This document shows, piece by piece, positions 21,201 to 60,112 of a DNA stretch of 64,000 nucleotides. How positions within the stretch are numbered: position 1 is the stretch's first letter; every line of letters starts with the position of its first letter. Source of the DNA: Antedon mediterranea (Eukaryota > Animalia > Echinodermata); assembly GCF_964355755.1 (NCBI RefSeq), contig NC_092675.1, forward strand, positions 27,500,912-27,564,911, written 5' to 3'. The position numbers and the translations under genes are program-made. The notes beneath the pieces are model-generated. The model saw only the letters and a program-made list of their open reading frames with translations. It was not told where the DNA came from and searched no databases.

Positions 21201-24200
21201 GGTAGTGGTTTTTGGTGGGAAAATATTGTAAATCTTTGAATTTATCTTGACAATGGTAAATGAAGTTAATGATTATAAATACTGATAGTATTGAGAGATG
21301 TTGTCTTTTTTGTAGGAAAAAAAAGGTGGGGCCTACAATACTATAACAGTAAAAGTATGACAGGGATGTAGAGAGATACGTTACAGTGGAAAAGACAAAA
21401 CTATACTAAAAGGTTTTGTGTATCCAGAACAGAATGTTGAAATTATACTGTAAGGGGAATAGATTTGAACAGATTTTTTAAAAAACCATTTGTGAAGTTT
21501 TTTAGCTGCTTTCATAATCTATAGAAAATTTAAGAAAAAGACTCCATTATTTTGTTTACCAAATTTATAATCGGTCATGAGAAGTTCTGGTGGTTTTTCG
21601 ATACAAGCATAACTGATTTCTAAAGGGTCCAGGGCTGCCAGGTGATGCCCCCTAATCTGTAAAAAAATCATCCTGTCTTGTTAAACAATACATCATCAAC
21701 CTTATACAGACAATTGAAAGTATTCCAAATGCACACTCTAATTTCAGTAGAAATTAGTAGTTTAATTCAGGTTAATTAATAATATCTTCAGTAATATTAA
21801 GTTTATACAGTACTAACTACTACTGAACTCTCTCAATATCAGATTCTCTGAAAAACTCTTCCAACACCAGGGGTGGATTGCTATAAAACAGTCTTAACTG
21901 ATGGTCTTAACTCCCCGATTAAAGCCGGCTTTATCAGATAGACGGTCTTATTAAAGCCACTCCTGATAGACCATTGCTATAAACCAGTCTTAGATAAGAC
22001 CGCGTAAAGTAACAAATTGAGGGCGTACTTTGCGCGTAGAATACCAAATAAGGTAATGTTCGTCACGCTTGTTCAATTCACAATCATAACAGTACGTACA
22101 TTTCTACGCGAGAAAATCCATTCTAGGCCTATATAACAATAAAATCACCATTATTATTTGATTTAACACTTAAAACTCGTTCAATTGGTTGTCTTTGACG
22201 ATAAATAATACGTAAAAGCAACAAAAAGAGAGGTTTAACTTATAAGACTGTTTTAAGACTCCTTCGAGTAGGCTTTAATTTTAAAGACCGTTTACAGGTT
22301 AGACCGCGGTATAGCAATGGTCTATAATATAAGACTACTTGGTACGTCACGAATTATAGCCGGCTAAGCGCTAAGACCGGTTATAGACCGCTTATAGCAA
22401 TCCGCCCCAGACTTGAGGTCCAAAACGAAAAATACATTTAGAAATATACCAGAATTTCTAGAAAGCCAGCCCAACAGTATCTGGTATTGGGAGAGTTACA
22501 ATAGGTCTTTGTACAAAAAGACCTACAGTATGTGTATTGTAGTGGTAGTATGGCAGACTCTCTGTATCGTACCATTGTTTAATTTTAAAAGAATTCCTGA
22601 AAAGCGGTATTTAAAATGATACAATGAATGAATGCAGACTGAAACCAGTCAATGACGGACTAATGTTCTCAATCATGAGGACGTCTAACAAAACATATAA
22701 CATTGAATGAGAAAGAAAGAATGCGTAGCCAACCTGATATGAACGAATGATGGCCTGCACACTCAGATGATCCTCAATCACTTGGCGATCAAATGTGGGA
22801 GATTGTGTTAGACTGCCTCCTGTTGGAACAACGCTCATCACCGATGGTGGCGCTTGATAAGCGGTTCCAGGTGCGGCACCCTTTTCTGCATTCCGGAAGA
22901 AAATATCCCACGACTAGAAACAGAAAAAATATGAATTTTAAATTATGTTCAGTAATCTTGGATACAGTAATAATAATAATATTAATTTCAAAAGTATAAA
23001 GAAAATGAATTAATGTAATTTATACAATATATTGTATTGTACAATAACAAATTACGCAGAGACAACTTTACAAGGTAAACCTTAGATTCAAGGTGCTCTG
23101 AAAACAATTACAATATTTGTTCATACTTTTTTCGTTATCCATCTTTGACAATATGCTTTCCAAAAGGTTTTTTCATTTTGTGTATTTAAGAAAGGATGGT
23201 TTGTTATTTTGTCAATAAACAATAAAAAAATACTGTATAAAACACATTTTCCTAATTTACCCCAAAAAAGATGTACACATCAAAGAATAATGTACTGTAT
23301 ACATTTTCATTACTGTATTTAAAGAACAAATATAAAACAATTCTTTTCACACCACAGTACTCTTCATGACATTATTATATATTGCCATTAATAACAAGTG
23401 TCATTAATAAATGATTGTTTTGCATATTGGCATTTACCATCAGGTATAAAAGGTTAATAACATTATGAAAAGACACCTCTTTATTTAGAAGTCTTCTGCG
23501 CACATTCCATATGGTGTACTGTGCAGTGAATCAAACAATATGCTTAAAATCATTAGATTTATATAATAATATATAATACAAAAACATCAAACAAATTAAA
23601 TTTTATGATCATTCTCAAATTCTCATCTCATCTCATAGCCTATTTCACCCACTGCTGTGTGAAGGCCTCCTCCAGCTGTTTCCATTTAGTTCTGTTTCTT
23701 GCCGGTCTTTTCCATTTCCATGTACGTTGTAATGTTGTCACGCCATCTTCTTTTTTGCCGTCCTCTTCTTCTTCTCCCTGTCCTCGGCTGCTATTGTACA
23801 TCAAAGGTGTTGTTTCCATGTAAATTTTATTATTAAATTATCTGTCTCTGTTTGAAAGGTAACTAAATATTATCATGACTTAATGTCTTGTTACTAAGTC
23901 TGTGTGTACATGTAGTATGTTCATAATATTGAAATCCAGTAAATTTATCACAGTACTGTACCAACATTGGTGAGTGAGTGTGGCCGAGCTCTTAAGACAG
24001 TGGAACCGTAATCCATAGCCATAACATCGGCAAGGCTTCGAGGCTCACTCGCTCCTTGGTTCTGGTGGTAGAACAAGTCTTCTCGGATAAGGACTATAAA
24101 CCGTAGGTCCAGTGTACTGTACATCTGGCTCATGTGCACTTTAAAAAACCTAGTACATATTTCGAGACGAGTAGGGGGTTACCCCGGTGTACTAGTTCAT

Positions 24201-29107: not shown

Positions 29108-32100
29108 ATGGCATCGGAAACGGCACCACTGCTAAAAGACATGGCAGACGACTCACAGGCAAAAAAGAGTGTATCCTTGACGCAGTCAGGACGAATGCAT
29201 ATTGTACTCTGTATATTATGCTGTGAACTATGTGAAAGATTAACATATTACAGTATTGTGGCTAACTTGGTGGTGTACTGCACAAATAAGTTAGGTTATA
29301 CAAGTGCTGATGCGGTCACCGTCAGCCTTGTGTTTTCCGGGACATCTTATTTTGTTCCTGTCTTAGGAGGATGGGTTGCGGACTCAATCTCAGGAAGATA
29401 CAACGCCATTTATGGCAGTTTGCTCATTTATTTTGTAGGTGAGTTGATTGAAAACTCGTTAAAAATACAAATGAATAAATTTCATTATTATAATTTGTTA
29501 TTCTTTACTGTATTAATTTATTATAAAACTTAAATTCATCATTAGTCGCCTGCAACGCGACCCTACAGCTCACTATGTCGGTCGGTTGGTCGGTAAACAC
29601 TAATTTAAGCACGCGACTGAAGCCATGTATAAGGCCTTGTTTTTATACAGTTCATCATTTAAAAGAATAAAATGTATGTTGTATATTATTACAAAGTCCT
29701 TTTAGGTATCAAAACCATTCAAGTTTATAACCATTCCAGTAAATAAGTAAATGTCCTATAGGCCTAAAGACCCAAGTCCCACTATGCTCATAATAACTAG
29801 CATAGACCGTGATTAAAACCACATATCATTATACATTTGAGAAAAACGCCGAACAATTTACAATTTTTAAAGTAGTTTATTTATGTAAGCTGCTTTGACG
29901 GATTTCTTTCGATCTTTGAGTGTTTTTCTTACTTTCGTAAATCTTTGATTGACACCGACGATGATAAACATCGCATATGTTTCGTTATTGCTCCAAACAA
30001 CATCATCATCATCAGTACAATAAATACGATCTTCAATGTTTTAGCTACAATATAATATTATTTCTCTACATACGGGACATTAGTTATATGTTCATTATAT
30101 GTTTATACAACATCCTGTAAAAGAGCACATGAGTAGACTATAAGAGCCAAATAACACCAAACGTTTTTTTTTTGGCTTAATTCACGTCCAGATGATCACT
30201 AAAAAAGACACAATTCAACTCTCTATTGTGCCAGCACTTTTATTAATTTATTCATAAGCTGAGCAGATCACAAAGAGAAAGTAGTATATTTCACAAAAAC
30301 ATAAAAACTATAGTTTGGTTTTGCATTCGTTCTAGAAATACCAATCTGTTTGAGGCCCACTTTAATCAAACAAAACAATATTTTACAAAAATTAAGGCCA
30401 ATTATATTAAGATAAACATTTTAAAAAAAAATGAAATACCATTGAAATGATGAACATTTTTGTAAAATTGCTTCCTACTGACGTGTAACCTGTGAATATT
30501 AAAAATACATTGATTTTATTAAAATTCCTGAAAATTGGTTTGATTATTACATAAATACATTTTTTTGCTATATATTGTAATACATTTTTACAAGGAAAGT
30601 AGGTTTGCTTTTGAAATTAATTGTAAAAAAAAAAACATTTTTCATATCATAGTTGAATCAGGAAAATCTCACTCTTCCCTTGCTGTATAGTAATTTCATT
30701 CAGAATTCATCTTTACAATTTCAAGGATGATCACAAAAATGTAAACGTCAACTTAGGCCTTAATGGTATACCCGTACCAATCATTATAATGTTAGAGCTG
30801 TGTGAAATACAGTAATAATAACAGGTTTACTATCATTCAAAAACAGTTAACAATTGAAACAATTAGTTGCTGGTATGATTATTGTACCTGTATCATCAGG
30901 TCACTACATATTTTAATATACACTCAATTAGTTCACTTTTGGAAAGCTTTGTTGCACAGCAACATGAATGAAGCATGCAACAATGAGGAATTACTGCTTC
31001 TCTCAAAGACACATGGATCCTGCAGTACGTCTGACAATGAATCGACGATCTTTTCCCACAAAGACAGACGCTTGGTCGTCATGTGCATCCTTTTTTGTGA
31101 ACTCTGTGAACGGCTAACCTACTATGGTATACTTGGCAATCTGATCTTGTACCTGACGATAGAGTTGGAATACAGCAGTGCAGACGCTTCCACTATATCA
31201 ATGGTTTGGACAGGTGTCGTCTATACCATTCCTGTTTTTGGTGGCTTTATAAGTGATTCGATGTTAGGAAGATTTAAAACAATAATTTACTCTCTGATTA
31301 TCTATGCAGTTGGTAAATATTGTGTGTTGTAATTATATTTGTTTAGTTTATATTTTAGGAGGAATTATGAGGCATTATATTGTTTGCCTGCAGAAGGAAC
31401 AAGAACAAGTTATTACAGGGTGACGTAGTCATACGGCAACGCAATATAAATATACATAGACAACAAAGTGTTATATAACTGTTCTTATTCTTTCAGGAAC
31501 CGTTGTACTACCTTTAATATCAATAGATTATGGGACACTACTAGATAGTGGAGCTGAACTTACGCTGTCTCAACAACGGGGATTTTATATTTTTGGTCTT
31601 TGTTTAATTGCTATTGGGACAGGCGGTATCAAATCAAATGTTGGGCCGTTTGGTGCACAACAACTTGAGGATCTCGGAGAGGGTGCTATACAAACGTTTT
31701 TTAATTGGTAAGAAAAATGAGTGTGTATGCTAATAGCTAATAGGTCTCTTCCTAAGTTACTGGCTGCGTGGGTTGCTTTGGAATACAACACAGAATCCTT
31801 CAGATAAGATGTAAAGATGTTTGTCTGTTTTTGTCAATAATAATTTTACAATAAATTGTTTAAAGGATGGTAAGGAAATAATAGTAGAGTAAGGTTTGTT
31901 AAAGAGTACACCAACAATTCCTAAATTGCTACAGAAATATGGAAAATTGTTGTGGCATTCCCACTTTTTCTACATACTGCCTTTTTTATCAATTACATGG
32001 GCTATTTGTAGTCTAAACCGTTATACGAATATTTTTGATATAGAAGATATTAAATAATAAAACTATCTTGTACTTCGTATCTTTAAAGGTTTTACTGGTT

Positions 32101-39912: not shown

Positions 39913-42900
39913 TCACATTTCGTACTCAGTCAGCAGCTTCTCCTGCAACGAAAGTACTTTATCCCGCCAACATATTAATTTATCAATCTTCATATCTGTA
40001 AATGAAATGTCTTCTTTATAACCGATTTCGTCATCCGGTGGTTCTGTAATCGGAATTGAGTTGTTTGCGTACGTATAATAATGTCCAATTACGGCAAATA
40101 TTCCCGTATTTACGAGCAAAAGAACGGATAACAGGATGTAGTAGCGTTCTAGATAACCGTCGTTGATTTCATCTGGATACCATTCGTGACCTTTATATTA
40201 AAACAAATTTAAATATTAAATTGTTAATAATTGTTAATGAGAGCCAGTTCAATCTGGAAAGATCGGGCGAGGTTATACGGATATACGACTATCTGTATAA
40301 AAAATATGTAAATTGTTCTATAATTATTCATCATTACCCTTTGTTACAGAATTGACGACAATGACCAGTAAAGAACCTAAATAATTTCCTATAGCACTAG
40401 TAAAGACAGACACTCCAAGCAAAACGCCCTGCAACATCTTTGGAGCTTCTGAATATGCAAACTCCGTACCTATAAAATAAGTCACTCTTTACAATCAATA
40501 AAGCTGGAAAATGTTTATAATAGGACTATAAATGGTTTAGATCTTTGTTACAATCAAATAATTCTGTACAATTTTATACTTACGAGTATTGCATGTAAGA
40601 ATTTCACTTGCGCCAAAAATAAAATATTGTGGAATTTGAACGAATACTGACATAGTAGACGCATTGTATGACGCATTGGCAATAATTTGTTCTTTATATC
40701 CACCGTTATCCATAATGTTTTTTCTACTAACTTCAACACCGGCGGCCCCTACCATTGCTATGGTACCTAAGAACATCCCAAATCCTAAAATATAAATGAA
40801 ATTGTAATCCTTCTTAACTTTTAAAAATAAATGTCTTTATATAATATAAAGAACAACACGCATTTTATAGTATGTAAGCGATTGGGAAACGTTGCCAGTG
40901 TAGGCCAGTTTGACACACTACGTATTGCTGAGATTTCATCGAGCTTAGTAAATTAATAAAATCGCAGTATGTAGTTAAATGGCCTTTCTAGTTGTAAATA
41001 CAGTACCATTCTCTGTTATACGAACTATAGTTTAGCCTAATCTCCACTAGCAACTTTTGCAGACTGTTTCGGATTTCGAACTTTGACGTTGGTGGCGTAA
41101 ATATTTTATTTGATTGTACGCAGAATTGTCAGCAAGATAATTATAACGCTTATTATCTAATAGTAGATACTGTAACTTTCTTATTTCTGACAGTGATACG
41201 TGGGAGTACTACGTACGTTATTATAACCTTTAAGTTGTGTTAATGTTCTTGACTTGGATATAAAAATTATTTGTTAGGCTATTTAGTTAAGTGTTTCGAT
41301 CAGCTAATTGGCCATAAGCCTGCCTAGCCTAGCTAGCCCTCGTGTAGTGCTACTAGTAGTAGTTTGACTGTATGTATGTATCTGCTATGCTGTTTTGCGG
41401 GGTTGTTTGCACACGCAGCTGTGCTGCCTTGTGCGTGTTTTCATTGAGTTTATTTGTGTTTCAGACTTTACCGAAGAATAAAGAACGGTTAAAGCAACTA
41501 CCACGAGTTTGTGTATCATTGTCCGAACTAGTAAAGTGTAATCCCTTAATAATGGAGGAAAATACGTTCGTCGACCTCAGCTTCGAAGAGCTCGAGGTCA
41601 AACACCGTTCGTTTAAAGGTCATCTAACGAGGGCAAGGGACCGTTTTACCCGTGTTCTCGACCGAGACGAACCGGAACTGGTTAAAGTGGCATTCGACCA
41701 TATACAAAAGAAAATTCGAAAGATAACCGACTTACTTGATGCTATGGATGTTGTCAAACCACCTGATGAGACTAACACTACTACACGTCTACATGCAGAA
41801 CTAATGTCAGCAGCTGATGACGTGGAGAAAAAATATCAAGAGTACAGAAGGTTTTCAAGGAATGAGCAAACCGCTCATTCTTCCCAAGGTGAGCCAACTG
41901 CAGCAGGAAAAGATGAAGAGATGATAAAATTAATTAAAGCTCAGTCTGACATGGTGGCACAGCTTACAATAAAATTGAACGGAAACGGCTCAGACAACAA
42001 ACGGCCTTCAATTAAAACACCAGGACTCCCAGCCCCACGGTGGGATGGATCTCCAAGAAACTTCCATTCTTGGCATGTACGAATTGACCAATACTTCGAA
42101 TCTGCTGGTATTAAAGGTGACCAAGAAAAATTGATGATTTTGCTCAATGGTGATGCGTTACCCAAATCTATTCAAGATCATATTGCTGATTGCTGTTCTG
42201 TTGAAGGTGATAATGGAGCTTGGGCTCGTCTGAAGGAAAAGGTCCCGACTTCAGCTATTGTTCGTGATGTTATTCTGACACTTCAGATGTTGAAGCCAAT
42301 GAAGTCAGCAACAGCAAAGGAAATGCGGCCTGTTTTGAATGGACTCACAGACTTTGCAAGACGAATGCGTGAACTTGGAAAAGAATTAGAACTCTCATCG
42401 TCAGTAGTTGTTGAACTAGCGAGTCAGAAAATCGATGCTGAATTAAGTTTCGAATACATGCGGCAGATAAAGCAAGATGAGCCGACAATACCAAGTTTGA
42501 TCTCATTCTTACGAAGTGAAACGGAAGCAAGGGAACGTCGAGAGCAACCTCATATGTTTGGCGATCAAAATGCATCTACTCATCACATTACAGGACAAAT
42601 TAGTACACTTGAAAATACTACCCAATTCCCACCGAAATCTAATTTTAAAGGTGCTGAAACTAGCACGGATGATTGTCCTTTCTGCACTGACCACTCACGT
42701 CACTTGATTATAAAGTGCCCTAATTTTAACTCAAAATCTAACGAAGAGAGACGGTTAATGATAATGGAAGCTAGAAGATGTTTCCTATGTTTTCGCACAA
42801 ATCACAGTGCGTTCAGATGCCCCAGACATGACAAAAAACGCTGCTCTGTATGTCAACTATTTCACCACCGACTGATTGCTTGCCCACCCAATCGCACTTT

Positions 42901-45900
42901 GAGAATTAACAACGCAGATGGTTTCTGTCAAAGCCAAATGTCACCAAAAACACAGGCGGGAGCGAACACAAATCTACGGCCAATTGTACACCACGAAAAC
43001 CAGGTAGGAACCAACTTAGGTCAGAATCCATTCATATATTTGCCAGCATCAACTAACCAAACTGTTTCAAATATGAATTTAGATAAAACGTCAATAAATT
43101 CACCTCAGATAGTTCAGGCGGGAGCAAACCCAAGTCTACGTCAGACTGTAGCAGGGCCCAGTCAAAATCCATTCGTGTCTTTGCCTCCATCAACGAACCA
43201 GACAATTTCGAAAATGAATTCGACGAGGCATGCCGAACGTCGTCGCTACTCACCGACTACATATGTCGAGATACAAGACAACGAGGGCAATTGGCAGAAA
43301 GCTGTCGCATTCTTTGATAGTGGTGCTGATACCACTCTGGTCAAGTGCTCCACCGCTGAAAGTCTAGGCTTAAACGGACTGCCCTTTGTATTTACTTAGT
43401 GCAAGGTATCAACTTCGAGTCAGACCACTACAGGAATTGAAAGCATACGACTTGGTTGCAATTAGTGTACAAAAGCCTGCCCATGATAGCCCATCTGTTG
43501 GCGAAGATATCTTTGACGAACACCCTCATTTAACGGTAGTTAAAGAACATTTGCCTGCGGAGGAAGCCGAGATCGACTTACTCATTGGATACGACTATCA
43601 AAGTCTTACTACACCACTGAAAACAATACGTTCATTAACTGATCCTGATACATCGCCAACTGCGGCAAAAAGTGCTCTAGGTTGGACAATTATTGGACAA
43701 ACCATTCCAAAGCCAACTTCCAATGTCATCAGCCACATCACAAACGTAACTTTCATGGACGACTCCCAGCTTTTATATACATCCGATGTCATTGGAGTTA
43801 AACCAACAACCTTGTGTACATGTACAGATAAGGAGATCGCTGAATCTCAGTTTATCAAACATTGTAGAAAAAATCTCCAAATAAATGAGAAGGGCCGCAT
43901 TACCGTGGAAATGCCATGGAAGGATGGATTTCCTGAGTCTCTAGACTGTAATAGAGTACAAGCCGTGACGAGGATGATTTCACATGAGGCTAGGTTGCTA
44001 AAAAACAAGCAAATCAATGACTACAATGATGAAATTCAAGCTCTCCTTGACAATGGATTTACGCGTGAGCTTACGCCAAGTGAAGACAGAAATGAAGGAT
44101 GGTACCTTCAACACCATGCTGTCCATCAGCAACACAAGACAACGAAGATTCGAATTGTATGGAATTCCGCTGCTAAGTTTAACGGGTTGTGTCTCAACGA
44201 CGGATTCCACAAAGGGCCAGATTTCCTAAACTCACTTGTGACATGCTTTCTATACTGGCGGAAGTACGGAATTGCCATAGCTGGAGACGTTCGGAAGATG
44301 TTTAACCAGATTGCATTATCAGTGCGTGATCAAAAGTTTCATCGTTTTGTCTGGCGATTTGGTGATACCTCAAAGGATATTAGGTATTTTCAGTGGTTGC
44401 GTTTGCCGTTTGGGGACAAACCAGCACCGGACATTTCTATGATGGCCGTTCGTTTACTAGCTGAGGCTAACGCCGATTCAGATCCTATAGGGGCTCTTAG
44501 GATCAAAGATCGTATGTACATGGATGATATAACCGACTCATTTACAAAACCGAACGATGCAGTTGAGGCAGTTGAGCAGGTTACTCGTATTCTAAGAAAG
44601 GGATCTTTCGAAATCAAAGTGTGGCATTCTAACCATCCGATGGTAGACCAGTGCCCTGAAGAGAAGCACACACGTGTTTTAGGCCACTTGTGGAATAAGC
44701 TAGATGACACTGTAACAATTCAACTTGATAGATTCGATGAAGAACAGACTCCACTTACCTAAAGAAAAGTTTCCAGTCTTGTTGCCAGGTTGTGGGATCC
44801 ATTAGGAATGTTGAGCCCTGTGAGTATTCGTTATAAAATTGGACTCCAGGAGATTTGGGCAGCTAGGCTTGATTGGGACGACGTGTTTGATGATGAGCAA
44901 ACAACTATGTGGAAAGGTTTTATAAAGGAGATGAATCATCTTGTGGGATTCGAAATTCCACGTCAGCTAACGCCTGAGGATTCTATTGCTTACCCTCAGT
45001 TACACTGTTTCAGTGATGCTAGTGAAGCTGCATTTGGTTCTGTCATCTGGCTGCGTTGGGATACCCCAGCAGGAGTTAAATTGACATACGTTATAGCAAA
45101 GGCTCTAGTTGCACCGTTAAAGAAAAGATCAATTCCAAGATTAGAGTTAACTGCAGTTGTTGTCATGGCTCGACTCGCTAAACTTGTCTTAGAAGTGGTA
45201 GGAGATGTTAGTCTATGCAAGTTCTGGACCGACTCGAAAGTTGTCCTGTCTTGGGTTAGGTCACCCGCCAGGACCTTCAAACCGTTTGTGTCTGCTCGTG
45301 TTCAAGAGATTCAGGATACACTTCCAACATTTATTGATGACTTATGTTACATCCCTTCTAACATCAATCCAGCGGATTAGTTAACCAAGCCAATATACCC
45401 AAGTGACCTTCAGAAATGGATTCAAGGCCCAGATTTTCTTTTTCAAAGTTCTAACCAATGGCCAAACTATGAACCCGACTATGACACAGAGTTAAAACAA
45501 ATGGTTGTAAAGGAGTACACAACGGAGTCTCTACGCAAAACGAATTATGTTACAGCTGTCAGAGGTAGGCCTACATTTGAAGACCTGTTGGTCAACACCG
45601 TGTCAAATTGGACTAGGCTGGTTCACCGAATAGCATACTGTCGTCGATTCATTTTAAAAAGGCGACCAGAAACCCTCTTTTTGACTGCCGACGAACTGCA
45701 AAGGGCTGAATTTTCACTCTTCTACGTTTCTCAGCGCACTGCGAACGATCGTTTGGATGCTTGGAGTACTAGAAAGCTAAACCCTAAAGTGGACGAGAGT
45801 GGTATGATAAGGGTCGAGGGAAGACTTAACAAGCTTCATATCCCTGAACAACAAAAACGGCCGATTCTTCTTCGTAGAGGATCATTTCTGGTAGAGTTGT

Positions 45901-48900
45901 TTGCCAAATATATTCATAAGACGATTGGTCATCAGGGATACCGAGTGGCTGTTGCAAGCACATTTAAACGTGGAATTTACATACTCGGAGGACCCAAATT
46001 GTTTAAAGATATTGCTGCCAAATGTATGTTCTGTCGAACTCGACGTAGGAGTTTACTTAGCCAACAAATGGGAGAACTTCCCAGTTTTAGAGGCGATCCG
46101 CATACACCACCCTTTTGTAACGTAGCTCTTGATTTCTTTGGACCGATTTCTATCAAGCTCACTCGTAATACCAATACAGAAGGTAACATTCTGATAGTGA
46201 CCTGCATGACCACACGAGTTATCTCATTAGAATTAGTGGATTCTCTATCATCAGAATCATTTATTAATGCTTGGAGACGATTTGTCTGCTCGCGGGGGAT
46301 CCACCCAGTAACCGCCTTTAGTGACCATGGCCGCAATTTCGTCGGCGCTCAGCAGAAGTTGAGAGATTGGATCAAATCATGGGACGAACTAAAATTAAAG
46401 ATGGAATTCAGGAAAACCAATACATCTTTCGACTGGCAGTTCAATACTCCTTACGCTTCTCACATGAATGGAGTTGTCGAATCGCTTATAAGGAGTTGCC
46501 GTAAAGGTCTAGATGCCGTAGTCGATTACCATCATCGCCGTTTTAGTGCCCTTGAATGGCAGACTATTTTGAGTGAAGTGACTTATCTTATAAACTCACG
46601 ACCATTGTTTCCGGATGGGCCTGATCCACTTGAATCACCGCCAATTACTGGTAATGATATTCTATTTCCACATGGACAACCCGTACTCTTGCAACCGAAC
46701 TTGGAAGTGGTAACGAATCAGAAGAGTATTGTCGACATCGCACAACGACGTGTTCATGCATTCTGGGATTGTTGGATGTGTTATATGCCACCTCAATTAG
46801 TACAACGTTCAAAGTGGTTTCACCCAAGAGAAAATTTGCAGATTGGAGATTTAGTGCTAGTACTGGAACCTGGATTAAAGGGGGTTGCAGCACCACGTGG
46901 ACATTGGCGACGGGGAATAGTTGTGGATGTGAAGCCAGGGAAGGACAATCTCGTTCGGAAGGCCATGATTAAAACTGTTGAAAGATCGAATATAAGTATT
47001 AAGGAAAGGCCTGTACATAAGTTGTGTTTGATTGCAACTGTGGGAGAACTTAACCACGGGTTTTCTTCTAAATAAGGAATGCTTTATTATGTAACTACTT
47101 GAGTCGTGAACCTTTAATTACTGCATTTAATTTTAATTAATTTGTTGTGGTTATTTTTCGAAATCCTTTATGTACTGTGACTCATGTCAATTTGTCACGA
47201 GGCGGGAGTGTTTCGGATTTCGAACTTTGACGTTGGTGGCGTAAATATTTTATTTGATTGTACGCAGAATTGTCAGCAAGATAATTATAACGCTTATTAT
47301 CTAATAGTAGATACTGTAACTTTCTTATTTCTGACAGTGATACGTGGGAGTACTACGTACGTTATTATAACCTTTAAGTTGTGTTAATGTTCTTGACTTG
47401 GATATAAAAATTATTTGTTAGGCTATTTAGTTAAGTGTTTCGATCAGCTAATTGGCCATAAGCCTGCCTAGCCTAGCTAGCCCTCGTGTAGTGCTACTAG
47501 TAGTAGTTTGACTGTATGTATGTATCTGCTATGCTGTTTTGCGGGGTTGTTTGCACACGCAGCTGTGCTGCCTTGTGCGTGTTTTCATTGAGTTTATTTG
47601 TGTTTCAGACTTTACCGAAGAATAAAGAACGGTTAAAGCAACTACCACGAGTTTGTGTATCATTGTCCGAACTACAGACTCTGAGTTCACCACTGATAGG
47701 AGTTTGTTGTCCATTGGCGAATGGATGTTTTACAGTGTAACAAGACTACAATGATTATTTTGATTCACTGAATTTAACTGTTAAAAACAAACATTGGAAA
47801 CATTTTCTTGCCAAAATTCGAGTTTACAAGGCAGGAATTCAATTTCATTATCTGGACATCATAAACTTTCAAATTGTGGTAAACTAGGAGTTTGTAAACA
47901 AAGCTTGGTGAAATATAGGCCTAATAGTTTGACTAGGCTTAACACGTGCAATGTTGACATCTATGAAACATTAAAAAACTTACCCATCCGCTTAAGCTGC
48001 GTCAGTTTGAAACCAAAATACTCACAAAATGGATATACTACAGTATCCATCAACGGAATCAAAAATAAAAGACTAATTTTATTGAAGACACTAAGCGATG
48101 CAACGGGAAATGTGAAGTCACCGTAGACCAGGTTCATTCTTGCTCCTTGAAGGACAAATGACGATTGCATCTAAAGTGAAATGAAGGCTTAAATATTAGT
48201 CATCATCATCATTAAATCATAGTTTCAAATCAAAGAATGCATCAATGTTTTGGAACTATAAATAACTACCTGCGCATAACCTATAATAAGTACCTGCGTA
48301 TAAACTATAAATAACTGCCTGCGCATACCTGCGCATCATAAACTATAAATAACTACCTGCGCATAAACTGCAAATAACTACCTGCGCATAAACTATAAAA
48401 AATTACCTGCGCACAAACTATAAATAAACTACCTGCGCATAAACTATAAATAACTACCTGCGCATAAACTATAAATAACTATCTGCGCATAAACTGTAAA
48501 TAACTACCTGCGCATAAACTGTCGCATAGAAAGCTGTACCAAACAGCACTGGTATAACTCTCGCCAAAACTTTCACTTCTTCTACATGGTTACTTCGGAA
48601 AGTACCTCCATGTTCTTCCTTAGCCCGGTCAAGAAAACTTGCATTTTCTGCATTACTTTTGCTGCTACGACAGGAATATGAAATTGCCTGACCAAGAATG
48701 TTGAATATTCTGGTCAGTATGCTACCTGCAAGTAAAAAAAACACATTTTATTTTAAAACCAATTTATCTATAAAATCTAACAATGAATAAAAATGAAATA
48801 TTCAACAGACTATACTCTTTTACTGATTATAGAGGAATTGGAGTTAGTACTCTATCAAATCATATCTTGAATTTTGCGTTAAAGTGGACCAAAATGGAAT

Positions 48901-50389
48901 AAAGTATAGCAGTATTTCCCCCTAATGTTGCAACGTGTTGAAAACAGACCCGTAACTCATTGACAAACCAGTCCCGTCGAAAAAGCGTCGCTTAAAATTA
49001 CAGGGCAAATTATATGTGTCTTGCGTTAACGTGCCCTATAGCGGGAACCAAGCTGGTGCGACTCACCTTCTGGTGGTGTTGTTATATATTTTTTTCTTCC
49101 AGCCAACAAAGCTAGGCCAGCAAATATTATAGAAACAGCTGGAATTGTATAACCCCAAGCAAAGCTGATCTCTTGCTGAATATAAACCACAATAGTGTAA
49201 GCAATAATCGATCCTATATTGCTAAACCAACAACACCTGAAAGACATTGAACACAGTAAAAATATTAATTAAACGGAATTCGCAGATTATTATTTTGTAC
49301 AAAAGTTAGCGTCTTTTTCATCTATGGTACCGTACCAAAGCTATTCACTAAAATACACATTTACAATCAGTTGCACTCATTCAATTACAATTTTGTAATA
49401 ATCATTTTTTGGTAAAATATTTTATTTAATTTATGTGCAGTGGTAGTTTATCTATCAACTACTACGGTACATTATTTTAAATTTCTAAAACAAATATTGT
49501 CTTATTTTACCAATTAAAATACGATTGTAGAAACCCATCTCCCAAGTCTTCAAGTTGTTGAACGCCGAATGGGGCAACCGTTGTGTTGATGCCTCCAGAT
49601 CCGATAGCAACTAACGATAACGCTGATATATACAATATTCGCTGTTCAGATAAAGAAAGTCCTCCGTCGATCAGATTATCATAATCAATTGCGGCTATAG
49701 GTAGAATAATTGTACCTAAAAGAGTTTACATTAGTTAGGACGTCCCATTATAAAATTTGACCTAATCGAATTTCTTGTTAATAAATCAAATAGGCCTCTA
49801 TTAAAAACCGCTGTTTGTTTTCGAATAAAAGCTGAGGTGTGATTAGAAGCACTATCAAAAGATTAAAAAGGTGTTTTTGAGATTTAAACTGTCTCTCCAC
49901 CTTGACGAATGACGTTAATTAACAACTCCTATACTATTAGGTATCGTAAGTGTGTTCCAGCTGCGTCAAAGAATGAACTAACTTATAAAAAACAATCAAT
50001 TAGGCCTATAAACACTTACCGACTCCATAAATAAATAAAGACCAAAATATTGTTTTGAGTTTGCCTAAGAAAGAGTCACTTATAAGTCCACCAAGAAGGG
50101 GTGTGGTATAGACACACCCCGAAAAAAGGAGAGATATTGAACACGCTGTCACACTGCTATATTTCAGCTCGATAGTTAAAAATGTTACCAGATTTCCAAC
50201 AATTCCATAATAAGTTAACCGCTCACAGAACTGAGACAGGAGAATGCACAACACAATAAAGTAACGGTTACTGCTGATAGAAACGGGCTTCTTCTTGCTA
50301 TCTTCATTCTCCAAACTTGAATAAGAAAATCTTGTATTTGAAAGAAGCAATGACTTCTCATCTGCGGTGAAATCCAAGCTCATACCCAT
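39913..50389 (-). CDS. SLC15A4-like transporter, copy 2 (intact 586-aa ORF with divergent coupling and binding residues)
   Basis: Exons: 50020-50389, 49511-49715, 49067-49236, 48508-48725, 47984-48170, 40584-40784, 40338-40469, 39913-40190. All are GT-AG, sum to 1761 nt and contain no internal stops. A BEL element sits in intron 5. Confidence 0.85.
41065..41530 (+). repeat. 5' LTR
   Basis: It is identical by eye to 47209-47674, with TATAAAA near 41259 and AATAAA near 41477. Confidence 0.95.
41552..43399 (+). CDS. BEL/Pao gag plus N-terminal protease
   Basis: Motifs: PRWDG..NF..W, CPFC..H..C, CFLC..H..C, CSVC..HH, FFDSGADTT. The ATG is at 41552; the earlier ORF-track start lies inside the LTR. 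Confidence 0.85.
   Translation: MEENTFVDLSFEELEVKHRSFKGHLTRARDRFTRVLDRDEPELVKVAFDHIQKKIRKITDLLDAMDVVKPPDETNTTTRLHAELMSAADDVEKKYQEYRRFSRNEQTAHSSQGEPTAAGKDEEMIKLIKAQSDMVAQLTIKLNGNGSDNKRPSIKTPGLPAPRWDGSPRNFHSWHVRIDQYFESAGIKGDQEKLMILLNGDALPKSIQDHIADCCSVEGDNGAWARLKEKVPTSAIVRDVILTLQMLKPMKSATAKEMRPVLNGLTDFARRMRELGKELELSSSVVVELASQKIDAELSFEYMRQIKQDEPTIPSLISFLRSETEARERREQPHMFGDQNASTHHITGQISTLENTTQFPPKSNFKGAETSTDDCPFCTDHSRHLIIKCPNFNSKSNEERRLMIMEARRCFLCFRTNHSAFRCPRHDKKRCSVCQLFHHRLIACPPNRTLRINNADGFCQSQMSPKTQAGANTNLRPIVHHENQVGTNLGQNPFIYLPASTNQTVSNMNLDKTSINSPQIVQAGANPSLRQTVAGPSQNPFVSLPPSTNQTISKMNSTRHAERRRYSPTTYVEIQDNEGNWQKAVAFFDSGADTTLVKCSTAESLGLNGLPFVFT
43386..47075 (+). pseudogene. BEL/Pao pol (RT, RNase H, integrase) in a single frame broken by TAA at 44760 and TAG at 45378
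   Basis: ORFs 43386, 44790 and 45501 share one frame. The stops interrupt conserved LTKRK and NPADL contexts. The frame is shifted relative to gag-pro. Confidence 0.88.
47209..47674 (+). repeat. 3' LTR
   Basis: It is preceded by a polypurine tract and followed by the CAGAC TSD. Confidence 0.95.
48254..48520. repeat. 25-bp minisatellite (about 10 units, AACTATAAATAACTACCTGCGCATA) derived from the exon 4/intron 4 junction of copy 2
   Basis: The reverse complement of the unit is AGTTTATGCGCAG/GTAGTTATTTAT, which is the exon end plus the donor site. Confidence 0.92.
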
Positions 50390-51271
50390 TCTGCACACTT
50401 TCTAATACCAGTCTTTCGTTGAAGATACAGCATAAATCTGTCGGTTGTGGAGAGTATTGCGAGAATAAATAAGGTAATAATGCATGAGGTTCATACTGTC
50501 AGCCAAATCCAGCTTTCATCAGGCCGACATTTCCTTAATTATTACCGTATACAATTTTCCTTAATTACAGCCATCTGTACAAAAGTTACAGTATGTTTTC
50601 TACACGACATGTAAAGTAGATTTTTCATCGGTTGCCATTTCCTCCTGCTGGTAGGCCTATGCTACGTAATGTCAATATATATTTCGCGATAAACAAACAT
50701 TTTAATTGTCTAGGTTCTGAAATGTGTTTCTCTTAAAATTAGTAAAAAGATAAATATGTTCGGTACATATGGCGTTTTATACGTATAATAATTTAGCTCA
50801 GAGACAAAAATTGCAACGCCGACCAGTGGACTGGCACATATTTCGTTTCATACCTATAATAATTGAGCTCAGACAAAAAATTAAAACGCCGTCAAGGGGA
50901 CTAACATAAAAAGGACAAAATACAGACTTAGTGCAATATCATGTGCAATGCGATACTTTTGATTGATTTAATCATTACAGAAGTATAACGACGACAAGTT
51001 ATTCTATATTTATCAAACAATTTCAGTTTAGGCTGATATTGAATTTGTAAAAGTTTGCATGCGTACAAACAGCAGTAACAATAGTTTTGACCTGTTGTAA
51101 ATCTCTACTTCTCATTTCTTTAAAATCGCAATGAAGCAAACATTTCCAACATTTAAAATAATAAACTATATAAGCTACATTTTAAATTAATATTATTTTC
51201 GTCTTACATTTGATACTATTTTAAATCGTTATTATTATTATTATCTTATTATTGGATGATAATTACTCTTA

Positions 51272-51450
51272 AGCTTGGTTCCCACTAGAACGTAACGCAA
51301 GGACGTAAACGCAACGCAAGCGTTTTAACCAATGACAAGCGAAGTTATAGAAAGTTAGCAATCACAAGCGAATAAGCCATCGCTTGTGATTGGTCAATTC
51401 ACTTGCGTTGCGTTACGTCCTTGTGTTGCGTCGCTAGTGGGAACCACGCT
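51272..51450. mobile_element. 179-bp palindromic MITE, same family as 17990-18168
   Basis: It has a TTA TSD on both sides and is near-identical to 17990-18168 in reverse orientation. Confidence 0.85.
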
Positions 51451-51898
51451 TTAGAGTGTTATGTAAAAACACTTCATTCACAAATATTATAACTAATGAT
51501 AAAGTAAAGTAATGTACTAAAATATTATCTATTTATAATAAAATAATTTTAAAATAGGCTTCTACGTCACGTGTCATATAATCCTTGTTACAGTTACAGT
51601 ATAATATGAACATTCCGAGAAGAATAAATATTGCTACTAATACAACCATTATCTATGGCAAGGCACTTGGTTGGTATAGATAGTGCTTTTGTGGAGGCCG
51701 CCCGTATCGTAGGAAGATGTAATTAAAGTTTAGATATAAATCTAAAGTTGAAATATAGCAAGCAAGCTTTTCATGGACGATACAATTACGTCAAATCAAG
51801 AATGATTAGATGGTACATTCCTTTATTCCCAACCATTCGTGGTTTGACAAAGACATTGTTCTCAATTGCCTCTGTTTACCTCACTGCCATCTTGCTGT

Positions 51899-56042: not shown

Positions 56043-58839
56043 ATTGAAAATATCAATGAAATTTGAATTAATATTATTTAGGATTCAGTGATTATATGTG
56101 GATAATAGATGCCTTTTTAGCTTAAAAGTTTTTTTGTTGGCGATTCAGTTATGTATTTGGGTAAGTTGTTCCAATATTTTGGCCCTGAAAACTGAATGTT
56201 ATGTTGGAAAGATAGTGTTTTGTGTAATGGAATATGTATTTTATTTGAGGTTCTTGTGTTATGACTATGATAGTTGAAATTGAATTTGAACAGGGGTTGA
56301 AATTGAGCGGGGATTAGGGAATTTAACCAAGAGTATACAAAAATACATTGTTGAAGGCAATTTATATCGTAAATTTTTAAAAGGGAAAGGGATGCAAACA
56401 ACGGATCTGAGTGGGCTCTTGGAGGCGAGTCTGAAATGTTTCTAATACATTTTTTTTGTAGTAAAAGAAGTTTGTTTAGGTACGAGAGATAAGTGTTCCC
56501 GCAGACAATATTGCAATAGTGGAGATAAGGAAGAATAAGGGAGCAGTAGATAGTACGAAGGATGTTTTGAGGAATAAATGCTGAAAGTCTAAAAATAATA
56601 CCAGAACTTTTAGATATTTTGTTTTCGATTTCGTTAATATGGGCTTTCCAGGTCAATCTACTATCTAAATAGACCCCAAGAAATTTTGTTTTATTCACTA
56701 ATGGTATTTGGTAAGTGCCAAACTGGAGTTGGTTTGGGCATCCTACTAGTGGTTTGGCCGAATTCCGAAAAATCATAAAATTGCACTTCTTAAAATTTAC
56801 GGAGAGCTTGTTTGCAGAAAAGTAATCAAGGATGCTGGGTATGCTATCAATGGTAACTTTAAGGAGCGAGTCTAAATTTGTGTCAGTATATAGGAGGGTG
56901 GTATCGTCTGCATATAAAAGGAATGAAATTAAATTTGAGGATCGGTAAATATCATTTATATATAGCAAGAACAGTAGAGGGCCTAGCAGGGATCCTTGAA
57001 GGACTCCACATGTAATGGGTTGGAGATCGGATATGGATTGTTTAAATTTAGTGCATTGGTAACGGTTGGTCAGATAACTTTTATAAAGATTATACGCAGG
57101 GCCACGGATTCCATAATTAAATAATTTTGTCATTTAGGATATCATGGTCTATTGTGTCAAATGCTTTGGAGAGATCGATAAAAAGGCCAATTGCTAATTT
57201 GTTTTTTTCAAATGCTTGTACAATCTCGTTTGTTAATTTAAGAAGTGCAATAGATGTGTTATGATTCTTAAGGAAGCCAAATTGATTTTTGTATATTATG
57301 TTATTCTGCTGAAGAAATGTATATGTTCTGTCATAAATAAGACGTTCAAGAATTTTGGAGAAGATTGGCAGAACTGAAATGGGGCGGTAATTTCCAGGGT
57401 CGTGTTTATCACCGGATTTGAAGATCGGGGTAACTTTTGCTAACTTGAGACTATCGGGAAAGAAACCGTTTGATAAACATAAGTTAAAAATATAGCATAG
57501 GGGATCTGATATTTGATGAATAACTTGTTTGATAATAGATGGACTTATATCATCAATGCCAGGGGATTTGTCATTTTTGAAATTTTTAACTAAGTCGATT
57601 ATCTCATCGCTGATAACAGGACTGAGAAATATAGAATTTAGGATAGGAGGGGGAAGATAAGTTTTGTAGTTTACATTAGAAGTATTAATGTTTGATGCGA
57701 GATTAGGCCCAATATTTACGAAATAATTATTAAAGTGGTTGGAAATTGTAGTAGGGTCATCTGTAAGATTACCCCCGCAGTCAATTACAGATTCACCGTG
57801 ATCACTCACTACACGTTTTTTAATTAAGGTGTTTATAATTTTCCAAGTACCTTTAATGTCATCTCTTTTTTGGTAAAATTGATCTTCATAATAATCCTTT
57901 TTAGCTTTTTTTATTACAGAATTTAGTTTATTTCGAAATTTTTTGTATTCAATTATATTTCTATTAGTTGGGAATTTATGTATATACATTATATATAGTA
58001 TAGATTAAAGATTGCAATAATAAACAACAACTAATATTTTGTGTAAACATAAATAGTATGAGTATAAATAATGATAATAAGCATATTAACTAAGCACAGT
58101 ATAATATTTAGATATATAATGATTCTTTAACTTTTTTCGGAAAGTAAATAATGATATTGACGTTTTGTTATTTGGCGGGATATGATTCCACAAATTAAGA
58201 CCCGATATAGTTATAAAAAATTTAGTTTTAGTAAGTCTAGCAAAAGAAAAAATAATGAGAAGTTCTTAAATTGTAATTGTGAAATTTGGTACGTTTACAG
58301 AGCATATCAATCATAGAAATAGGAAGTTGGTTTTTAAAATAATTAAACATAAAACTGGCAACTTGAACATTGTGGACGCTATAGCATGGTAATGGTGAAA
58401 AGGATGACAATGAATTCGAATGGATTAAAACTATATTACATTGTACGAATAATTACAAACAAGTACGCTTACCAATTCCATAAATAAACAATGAACAAAA
58501 TATTGTTTTAAGTTTTCCCAAAAAAGAATCACTTATAAGTCCGCCAAAAAGAGGTGTGGTGTAAACAAATCCGGTAAAAACTAGCGATATTGACGAAGCA
58601 GCCGCACTGCTATAGTCTAGCTCGATTGTTAAATACAACACAAGATTTCCAACGATTCCGTAATAAGTTAACCGCTCACAGAGCTCACAGAGTAGAATAC
58701 ACAAGACAACAAAGTATCGGTTACTGAAAGAATCGGGTTTCTTTTTGTCCTCTTCATCTTCACAACTTGAATAAGTACATTTTGTATTTGAAAGAAGCAA
58801 TGTCTTCTCATCATCGGTAAACTCTAAGCTCATACCCAT
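51899..58839 (-). CDS. SLC15A4-like transporter, copy 3 (583 aa)
   Basis: Exons: 58473-58839, 55014-55218, 54582-54751, 54016-54227, 53587-53773, 52704-52904, 52457-52588, 51899-52176, summing to 1752 nt in frame. ELCERLTYY, GTGGIK and WYYWFINIG are retained, with a DEKTLL dileucine. Confidence 0.9.
55487..57989 (-). mobile_element. 5'-truncated non-LTR retrotransposon (CR1/L2/Crack-like RT) in intron 1 of copy 3
   Basis: Motifs: NYRPISVLP, QFGF, FIDLSKAFD, GVLQGSLLGPLLF, YADD, KFLGV. There is a single-base frameshift near 57130 and no endonuclease domain. The T-rich 3' UTR ends in a hairpin (55605-55645), AATAAA and short CTGAAT repeats. Confidence 0.9.
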
Positions 58840-60112
58840 TCTGCACACTTTATAATATCAGTCTTTATTGAAGGTAAAGTCTAGGTCTGTCGATCGCGGA
58901 CAATATTCCGATGCTAAATTGGTTAATATGCAAAGTTCATGAAATAACTACCAGCCAAATATTTAATTATATATTCCTTTGGGTAGAATACAGCTCGATT
59001 ACCATAACATATTAAGTACAGGTCATTGTTTCACTTATTTCACTAAATAATTGTTATTTTGTATATTCTTTGTTTTGTAACAATAGTAGTTAATATTAGT
59101 TTGAACAGATTATACATAACACATTTATTTTCGACTGATAATAAAATGTATGTATACGTATGATAAATTCGTTCGCAATATGAAATTTTATGTCAGGATC
59201 ATCTTTAGAAATACGACAGCACTTATAAACACAAAATATATAAATGTAAAAAACAAGGTAACGTAACGTAACGTAAAATAAGACAAACAAAACAAGTATA
59301 ACAGTACAATGACCGAACAAGGTGAAAATCAGACACACAGCCTATTCAATTTGAATTTATTATTATATTTTGTAATAATTAGCAATCTAGATCATCATAC
59401 GTACAATAGTACACAGCAAGTTTAAATAATTTATGTCCAACATAGAAAATTAAGTTACTTAATTAAAACAAAAATGAAAATTAATAATTCAATTATTTTT
59501 CTAATACGATTCACTATTATTTTGACTAATAAAGCATGGACGATATCACAATGCAAGTTTTACGTAATTTTGTATGTACCTATATTGTGTTTATAATAAT
59601 ACGGGCAGTGATACCCGCATATCTTGATTAACACATGACATTTGATAATAAAAATGGTGGCTGATATTGAATTGTTTAAAAAAAAACTTTTTTTCTTTAA
59701 AATCGAAATGAAGCAAACATTTCAAACATTATGTAAAAATTGTAAATAATAAACTATATAAGCTACATTTTACTAGAACGTAACGCAAGGACGTAAACGC
59801 AAGCGTTTTAACCAATGACAATCGAAGTTATAGATAGTTAGCAATCACAAGCGAATAAGCCATCGCTTGTGATTGGTCAATTCACTTGCGTGTTGTGTCG
59901 CTAGTGGCAACCACGCTTTAGAGTCGATGATCGTTATCTAAAAACACTTAATAATAATAATAATAACAGGATTTTTTTTAGCGCACATACCACTCAAGAG
60001 TGCTCAAGGCAAAAAAAAAAAAAACAAAAAAAAACAAAAACAAATCATACAAATGCCTGACAAATAAAATGCAATTTCTTTGGAGGGTCCCCATCCGTTC
60101 TCGTTCTGTCGC

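What the first reader, a model, noticed from the sequence alone, without database searches (positions are those of the whole stretch)
39913..50389. Intact SLC15A4-like paralog with coordinated loss of the ExxER/K proton-coupling network
Seen: copy 2 has a full ORF and canonical splice sites, yet several conserved residues differ from copies 1 and 3. TM1 ELCER becomes QFCER, TM4 GTGGIK becomes GSGGIN, TM5 W(F/Y)YWFIN becomes WCCWFSN, TM7 YWT becomes YAT, and TM10 TSITG becomes TCNTR. In exon 3, three of the four amino-acid differences from copy 3 fall in the TM5 motif, while the last exon is nearly identical between copies. Known: the ExxER motif and the TM4 Lys couple protons to peptide transport in POT/PTR proteins, and some plant NPF members lacking ExxER/K are not proton-coupled importers. 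Inference: both charges are neutralised (E to Q, K to N), which looks like neofunctionalisation to an uncoupled carrier, a new substrate or a signalling scaffold rather than decay.
Basis: partly seen in the sequence, partly recalled or inferred. Interest (0 to 1): 0.78.

Follow-up and report, generated by a model that had tools for sequence, protein, structure and literature searches.

The report
Feather-star peptide transporter with rebuilt pocket
A tandem copy of a feather-star peptide-transporter gene keeps an intact reading frame but has changed many normally fixed residues of its cargo pocket, including two proton-coupling charges, so it likely works as a proton-independent carrier of a different cargo, although its expression is untested.

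Summary
Copy 2 (50389-39913, minus strand) is an 8-exon, 586-aa SLC15A4-like gene with GT-AG introns and no stop, in a crinoid tandem array. All five motif changes are real. The coupling network is only half lost: E53Q and K167N, while E56, R57, Y61 and E444 stay. The changes are not spread like decay: 16 of 94 conserved positions changed in cavity helices against 0 of 49 elsewhere, and 4 of 11 literature pocket residues against 6 of 98 others. Simulated neutral decay rarely leaves the frame intact (at most 0.5%). Positive selection is not shown: pocket-face omega is about 0.9 and the branch-site test is null, so release of constraint fits equally well. The exon-3 clustering looks like a gene-conversion boundary. 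No RNA run was listed, so expression is untested. Best reading: an uncoupled lysosomal carrier with an enlarged pocket (0.45). Plant NPF2a/NPF7 and bacterial DtpC are precedents, so this is a new variant of a known kind.

The parts
50020..50389 (-). Copy 2 exon 1: start codon, N-terminal dileucine-type motif at residues 10-15, TM1 with E53Q (E56, R57, Y60, Y61 kept), TM2, start of TM3
   Evidence: PDB hits are SLC15/POT
49511..49715 (-). Copy 2 exon 2: TM4 with T163S and K167N; T163S and three neighbours are shared with P0002, K167N is not
49067..49236 (-). Copy 2 exon 3: TM5 motif Y193C, Y194C, I197S in the first 24 nt; the remaining 146 nt are almost identical to copy 3 (likely conversion tract)
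48508..48725 (-). Copy 2 exon 4: inter-bundle loop and TM7 with W316A (two-base change)
   Evidence: identical in a second sample over 48362-48723
48254..48520 (.). 25-bp minisatellite that repeats the exon 4/intron 4 junction, giving 9 extra donor-like sites; use of any leads to a stop 12 codons after the exon
47984..48170 (-). Copy 2 exon 5: end of TM7 (E331A), TM8, start of TM9
41065..47674 (+). BEL/Pao-type LTR retrotransposon in intron 5, antisense to the gene; two identical 466-bp LTRs (41065-41530, 47209-47674), 5-bp target duplication; coding region interrupted by a frame change near 43390 and in-frame stops at 44760-44762 and 45378-45380
   Evidence: Pfam DUF1759, RVT_1, Peptidase_A17, DUF5641
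40584..40784 (-). Copy 2 exon 6: TM9, luminal hairpin, TM10 with E444 kept, S448C, I449N
40338..40469 (-). Copy 2 exon 7: G451R (codon split by intron 6), M452T, Q458E, TM11 with F471S, L472V, G476A
39913..40190 (-). Copy 2 exon 8: TM12 and C-terminus, stop codon
51899..58839 (-). Copy 3, canonical sister paralog, 8 exons, 583 aa, 82.5% identical to copy 2; exons 1-7 match database protein P0001
29108..36633 (+). Copy 1, canonical older paralog with two candidate first coding exons (29108-29438 and 30964-31312); exons 2-8 identical to P0003
61546..61823 (-). Last exon of a fourth copy that runs off the window end

Best explanation
Copy 2 is an intact tandem duplicate of an SLC15A4-like gene whose cavity-forming helices carry nearly all of its excess amino-acid changes, and it likely works as a proton-independent (passive or exchange) carrier, predicted to sit in lysosomes and to move a different cargo through an enlarged pocket. 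Shown: intact gene, location of the changes, kept scaffold, kept E56/R57/Y61/Y319/E444/E453 and a dileucine-type motif. Inferred: without E1 and the TM4 Lys, alternating access continues but is no longer driven by protons, as in PepTSt mutants. Loss of bulky side chains (Y193C, Y194C, I197S, W316A, F471S) would widen the pocket. The new Arg451, two turns below E444 on the same helix face, would replace the positive charge of the lost Lys. In a lysosome a downhill exporter needs no proton coupling, as MFSD1 shows. Expression, localisation and cargo are untested.
For: Changes private to copy 2 (copy 1 = copy 3): 36 of 263 in cavity helices, 3 of 98 in scaffold helices, 8 of 222 in loops; copy 3 has 4, 2 and 9. 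Conserved sites changed: 16 of 94 versus 0 of 49, p=0.00075; 15 of 79 versus 0 of 34, p=0.003, when only sites near a synonymous difference are kept. Literature pocket set: 4 of 11 versus 6 of 98, p=0.009. Branch omega 0.27-0.42, above background 0.14 (p=1e-4) and below 1 (p=0.005-0.026). Neutral-decay simulation leaves frame and splice sites intact in at most 0.5% of 1500 runs per setting. Introns of copies 2 and 3 are unalignable and exon 1 has dS 0.66 with dN 0.13, so the copy is old and was long constrained. Synonymous divergence is higher in cavity helices (0.40) than scaffold helices (0.14), an island pattern (PMC3728101 passages). E22Q and Lys126 substitutions keep counterflow in PepTSt (PMC3419923). 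Plant NPF2a members without the motif are passive carriers in tandem clusters (PMC6288477). W-to-A at the TM7 site occurs in abalone and plant homologues.
Against: No omega above 1: pocket-face estimate about 0.9 (roughly 0.45-2), branch-site lnL -4601.96 at omega 1 versus -4602.09 at 2, so drift of a pocket that no longer matters fits as well. The helical-wheel test for cavity-facing position is borderline (p=0.04-0.15). No copy-2 protein appeared in three searches that found copies 1 and 3 and P0002. A very young LTR element sits in intron 5 with two AATAAA on the gene strand per LTR, and the intron-4 donor is multiplied. The island pattern can also come from selection in copy 3 alone. Some NPF7 members without the motif are still proton-coupled (PMC12780319). 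The outgroup is distant (dS about 1.7) and conversion blurs branch estimates. The finding was picked because it looked intact and changed, so p-values are optimistic.
Confidence: 0.45

Rival explanations
1. Copy 2 is now silent or dying: either it once specialised and has recently lost use, or it is an early pseudogene partly patched by gene conversion.
For: Absent from the protein database although its neighbours are present; brand-new LTR insertion and donor minisatellite; omega outside the pocket also raised to about 0.35 against 0.15; neighbouring model P0002 looks broken.
Against: Pure decay is unlikely: intact frame in at most 0.5% of simulations, 0 of 49 conserved non-cavity sites hit. 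Copy 3 also carries a 2-kb retroelement in intron 1, so intronic insertion is not special to copy 2. One contig suggests an allele without the LTR element (record 25; letters not shown).
Confidence: 0.25
2. Copy 2 is a folded but transport-dead pseudo-transporter, kept as a dimer partner, regulator or docking site, so the scaffold is constrained and the pocket drifts.
For: Pocket-face omega near 1 with a constrained scaffold; vertebrate SLC15A4 forms dimers and has a transport-independent docking role.
Against: E444, R57, E56, Y61, Y319, E453 and Y456 are all kept. The Lys that copy 2 lost is needed for TASL binding in chicken PHT1, and a second docking residue (Phe501 equivalent) is also changed. 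No partner is known in crinoids (TASL being vertebrate-restricted is recalled, not tested).
Confidence: 0.2
3. Copy 2 is still a proton symporter with rewired coupling and altered specificity, using E56 and E444, like bacterial DtpC/YjdL.
For: DtpC works with Q at E1 (QxxEY) (PMC9309889, passages); some NPF7 members couple protons without the motif; E56 and E444 are kept; E1 is non-acidic in 25 of 131 diverse relatives.
Against: DtpC pairs Q1 with loss of the Arg, whereas copy 2 keeps the Arg, and E1-to-Q in the usual motif abolishes uptake. The TM4 Lys is also lost, and its primary amine is required for proton-driven uptake in PepTSt.
Confidence: 0.1

Closest known systems
SLC15A4/PHT1 (vertebrate lysosomal peptide/histidine transporter) and its invertebrate homologues
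   Same: Copy 3 (82.5% identical to copy 2) has SLC15A4 as best sequence and fold match; copy 2 nests with crinoid SLC15A4-like proteins; R44, Y48, Y82, F203, Y343, E473, E482 and Y485 equivalents are kept.
   Different: E1, K180, W340, F500 and F501 equivalents are changed; an Arg is gained in TM10; among 75 animal homologues none has more pocket departures (5 versus a median of 0).
Plant NPF2a (NAXT) and NPF7 subfamilies
   Same: Duplicates that lost ExxER/K charges; NPF2a are tandem-clustered passive nitrate or chloride carriers; NPF7 also lacks the TM4-TM10 bridge (PMC6288477).
   Different: They lack all motif charges, copy 2 only E1; they are broad old clades with measured function, copy 2 is one young lineage without function data.
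E. coli DtpC/YjdL (atypical POT)
   Same: Natural E1-to-Q change with altered specificity (PMC9309889).
   Different: DtpC loses the Arg and remains a proton-coupled transporter; copy 2 keeps the Arg and loses the TM4 Lys.
MFSD1 lysosomal dipeptide uniporter
   Same: Lysosomal MFS peptide exporter without ExxER and without proton coupling (PMC10990142): a model for how copy 2 would work.
   Different: A different family; not derived from SLC15.

Membership tests
POT/PTR2 (SLC15) family | PTR2 profile match | tested here: met
   5 of the 6 copy-2 exons scanned hit PF00854 (two above the gathering score, exon 4 none); exon 1 had no Pfam hit but hits SLC15 structures
POT/PTR2 (SLC15) family | 12-helix MFS fold | tested here: inconclusive
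   Modelled for copy 3 exons 1-7 only (pLDDT 90, 11 TM segments, TM-score about 0.8 to SLC15A4); copy 2 itself was not folded; 35 of 37 conserved Gly/Pro kept
SLC15A4-like clade | Phylogenetic placement with SLC15A4-like proteins | tested here: met
   Quick tree (careful tree unfinished): copy 2 with copy 3 and P0002, SH-aLRT 100, inside a crinoid clade, 100; 30 rows, no vertebrate SLC15A4 row
Canonical proton-coupled POT | Complete ExxER motif in TM1 | tested here: not met
   QxxER
Canonical proton-coupled POT | TM4 Lys | tested here: not met
   K167N
Canonical proton-coupled POT | TM10 Glu that binds the peptide N-terminus | tested here: met
   E444 kept
Canonical proton-coupled POT | Proton-driven peptide uptake | not testable with these tools
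   needs a transport assay
Pseudogene | Disabling lesion (stop, frameshift, splice loss) | tested here: not met
   none in 586 codons or 14 splice sites
Pseudogene | Omega near 1 spread evenly | tested here: not met
   whole-gene omega 0.27-0.42, uneven
Pseudogene | Not expressed | tested here: inconclusive
   no RNA holder listed; no copy-2 protein record
TASL-type docking receptor | K180, Y82, E473, M497, F501 equivalents | tested here: not met
   K180 and F501 equivalents changed, M497 already Leu in copies 2 and 3

The most novel reading that the evidence does not exclude
Copy 2 is an expressed animal SLC15 that has left proton-coupled peptide symport for passive transport of a non-peptide cargo, with a TM10 Arg taking over from the TM4 Lys: an animal counterpart of the plant NPF2a/NPF7 shift, caught beside its 82%-identical canonical sister, with the order of steps partly readable (T163S before K167N).
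Probability: 0.2. Interest if true: 0.75.

Novelty: new variant of a known kind. Interest (0 to 1): 0.45.

Why it matters
Animal SLC15 proteins are treated as obligate proton symporters; uncoupled, new-cargo versions are known from plants. A natural pair that differs at about 100 residues, one canonical and one with a rebuilt pocket, would let swaps show directly which residues tie protons to cargo in the SLC15A4 branch, whose own transport activity is disputed (PMC13372010, passages). If copy 2 is silent, it is an ordinary fading duplicate.

Tried and rejected
Expression: no RNA holder listed (5 runs, 2 studies); the one run guessed to be RNA carries intron 4 and behaves as DNA; no evidence either way. 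No whole genome is held, so copy 4 and orthologues could not be read as DNA. Three protein searches covering 67-2000 aa around exon 1 and 273-872 aa around P0001 gave no copy-2 record (one search listed 120 of 232 hits). Branch-site test: one search gave p=0.077 and one search gave omega 1.0, both from poor convergence; replaced by the profile, which shows no positive selection. Helical-wheel facing test borderline. Contig depth was not used as copy number. Careful tree did not finish. Earlier-findings look-ups returned nothing. Literature searches found no report of this gene or of an animal SLC15A4 paralog without ExxER/K among the listings seen. Rejected: assembly error, the exon-3 cluster as proof of selection, the LTR insertion as proof of decay (copy 3 has its own insertion). 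No complex prediction was run: no partner is claimed.
Full report
What is there. The window is AT-rich animal DNA with a tandem array of SLC15A4-like genes. Copy 3 exons 1-7 match database protein P0001 and copy 1 exons 2-8 are identical to P0003; both are labelled Antedon mediterranea, a feather star. Copy 2 has 8 exons on the minus strand from 50389 to 39913, 586 codons, no internal stop and 7 of 7 GT-AG introns. It is 82.5% identical to copy 3 (481 of 583) and 58% to copy 1. In a quick tree of 30 rows, copies 2 and 3 and P0002 form a clade on a long stem (0.79) inside the crinoid group; the terminal branch is 0.21 for copy 2 and 0 for copy 3 (the careful tree did not finish).

The observation. 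All five motif changes are real. E53 and K167 are invariant among the 75 animal homologues P0004-P0078 where a residue is aligned. The network is only partly lost: E56, R57, Y60, Y61, Y94, F190, Y319, N351, E444, E453 and Y456 are kept. A dileucine-type motif at residues 10-15 is kept (its role as a lysosomal signal is from PMC10990142, and from recall).

Intron 5 holds a 6.6-kb BEL/Pao-type element (41065-47674), antisense, with two identical 466-bp LTRs and a 5-bp target duplication, hence very recent. One contig has 24 unlaid letters just before the junction, which hints at an empty allele (record 25). A 25-bp minisatellite repeats the intron-4 donor nine more times, each leading to a stop. 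No copy-2 protein came up in three searches. Gene conversion has acted: introns are unalignable, yet synonymous divergence runs from 0.66 in exon 1 to 0.11 in exons 3 and 8 (heterogeneity p=6e-5; longest identical run 79 nt, p=0.011). In exon 3 the first 24 nt carry three replacement and three silent differences and the remaining 146 nt only two, so that cluster alone proves nothing. P0002, probably the fourth copy, is copy-3-like except at four positions in TM4 where it equals copy 2 (I153, S154, S163, A171) but keeps the Lys between them. The simplest reading is that K167N arose after that tract was shared (inference).

Decay or remodelling. Whole-gene omega on the copy-2 branch is 0.27-0.42, above background (0.14, p=1e-4) and below 1 (p=0.005-0.026) in a three-sequence codon model with a distant outgroup. 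Using helix limits from a model of copy 3 (TM12 limits set by eye from the alignment; the cavity versus scaffold split of MFS helices is recalled), changes private to copy 2 number 36 of 263 in cavity helices, 3 of 98 in scaffold helices and 8 of 222 in loops, against 4, 2 and 9 for copy 3. At sites at least 80% conserved, 16 of 94 changed in cavity helices and 0 of 49 elsewhere (p=0.00075), and 15 of 79 versus 0 of 34 after keeping only sites near a silent difference (p=0.003; 0.02 with a stricter filter); 57 of 583 columns with poor depth were left out of conservation counts. With pocket residues taken from chicken PHT1 (PMC10502012, passages) plus the motif, mapped by hand through the alignment, 4 of 11 highly conserved pocket sites changed against 6 of 98 others (p=0.009). 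Simulated neutral decay to the same number of conserved hits needs about 72 substitutions and leaves the gene intact in at most 0.5% of runs. Pure decay is therefore unlikely. But omega on the 70 pocket-face codons is about 0.9 (background 0.06), the rest about 0.35, and the branch-site profile peaks at 1 to 2 with no gain over 1. Adaptive change and release of the pocket cannot be told apart. The helical-wheel test is borderline.

How it would work. In PepTSt, E22Q and Lys126 changed to Arg, His or Gln abolish proton-driven uptake but keep counterflow (PMC3419923, passages; Asn was not among them). The motif and the TM4 Lys-TM10 Glu pair are also needed in PepTSo (PMC5740623, passages) and NPF2.11 (PMC4675897, abstract); MD on PepT2 ties E53 protonation to inner-gate opening (PMC11265797, passages). 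In PHT1 the Arg and Lys clamp the peptide C-terminus and the Glu the N-terminus. Copy 2 keeps the amino-end anchor, loses half of the carboxyl clamp, loses bulk on TM5, TM7 and TM11 (about 600 cubic angstroms over 15 hand-picked sites) and gains Arg451 on the E444 face. The likely product is a passive or exchange carrier for an amine-bearing cargo other than the usual di- and tripeptides; MFSD1 shows that a lysosomal exporter can be a uniporter (PMC10990142, passages). All of this is inference; confidence 0.45. Rivals: silent or dying copy 0.25, transport-dead partner 0.20, rewired symporter 0.10.

Comparison and novelty. It belongs to the POT/SLC15A4-like family by sequence but fails two defining features of a canonical proton-coupled POT. 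Loss of these charges has precedent: 62% of 2383 plant NPFs keep the full motif, NPF2a members are passive, NPF7 lacks the TM4-TM10 bridge (PMC6288477, abstract, section 9 and first part of section 15), some NPF7 remain proton-coupled (PMC12780319, passages), and DtpC has Q at E1 (PMC9309889, passages). Among 150 unnamed 50%-cluster representatives, 131 could be scored: 25 lack an acidic E1, 7 lack a basic TM4 residue and 5 lack both (p=0.003 for co-loss, not corrected for overall divergence), so the double loss is rare but not unique. I saw no paper on this gene or on an animal SLC15A4 paralog of this kind in search listings; no supplements were read. Verdict: real, non-random, new variant of a known kind, expression unknown; interest 0.45.

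Noticed in passing
window 29108-29438 and 30964-31312 (+): Copy 1 has two paralogous first coding exons, each with start codon, dileucine-type motif, ExxER and a phase-1 donor; database protein P0003 uses the upstream one. Possibly mutually exclusive N-termini covering TM1-TM3.
   Followed up: partly
window 56117-58004 (-): LINE-type reverse transcriptase fragment in intron 1 of copy 3, on the gene strand, split over two frames (Pfam RVT_1).
   Followed up: partly
window 41065-47674 (+): BEL/Pao element has identical LTRs yet two in-frame stops in pol; LTRs begin TG but end TA; gag starts about 20 nt after the 5' LTR.
   Followed up: partly
window 51264-51453, 17987-18177, 59772-59952: A roughly 190-bp self-complementary repeat (MITE-like) with extremely high contig depth in all four runs laid.
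   Followed up: no
window about 8200-22900 (-): Exons of a 2-oxoglutarate dehydrogenase E1-like gene (Pfam E1_dh at 10854-11126; gene name recalled from the sequence).
   Followed up: no
P0001, P0002: The database model of copy 3 stops in intron 7 although exon 8 is intact; P0002 (likely copy 4) skips part of exon 1 and ends out of frame, and is a mosaic of copy 3 with a copy-2-like TM4 patch.
   Followed up: partly
P0098, P0103, P0116, P0119: The four rows that lack E1 (plant NPF8-like) all also replace the TM5 Ile by a polar residue (Q, N, S, S), as copy 2 does (I197S); they may be one clade.
   Followed up: partly
P0056, P0069, P0077, P0108: Abalone SLC15A4-like proteins carry the same TM7 Trp-to-Ala change and other pocket departures while keeping ExxER and the Lys: a second animal pocket-remodelling lineage.
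   Followed up: no
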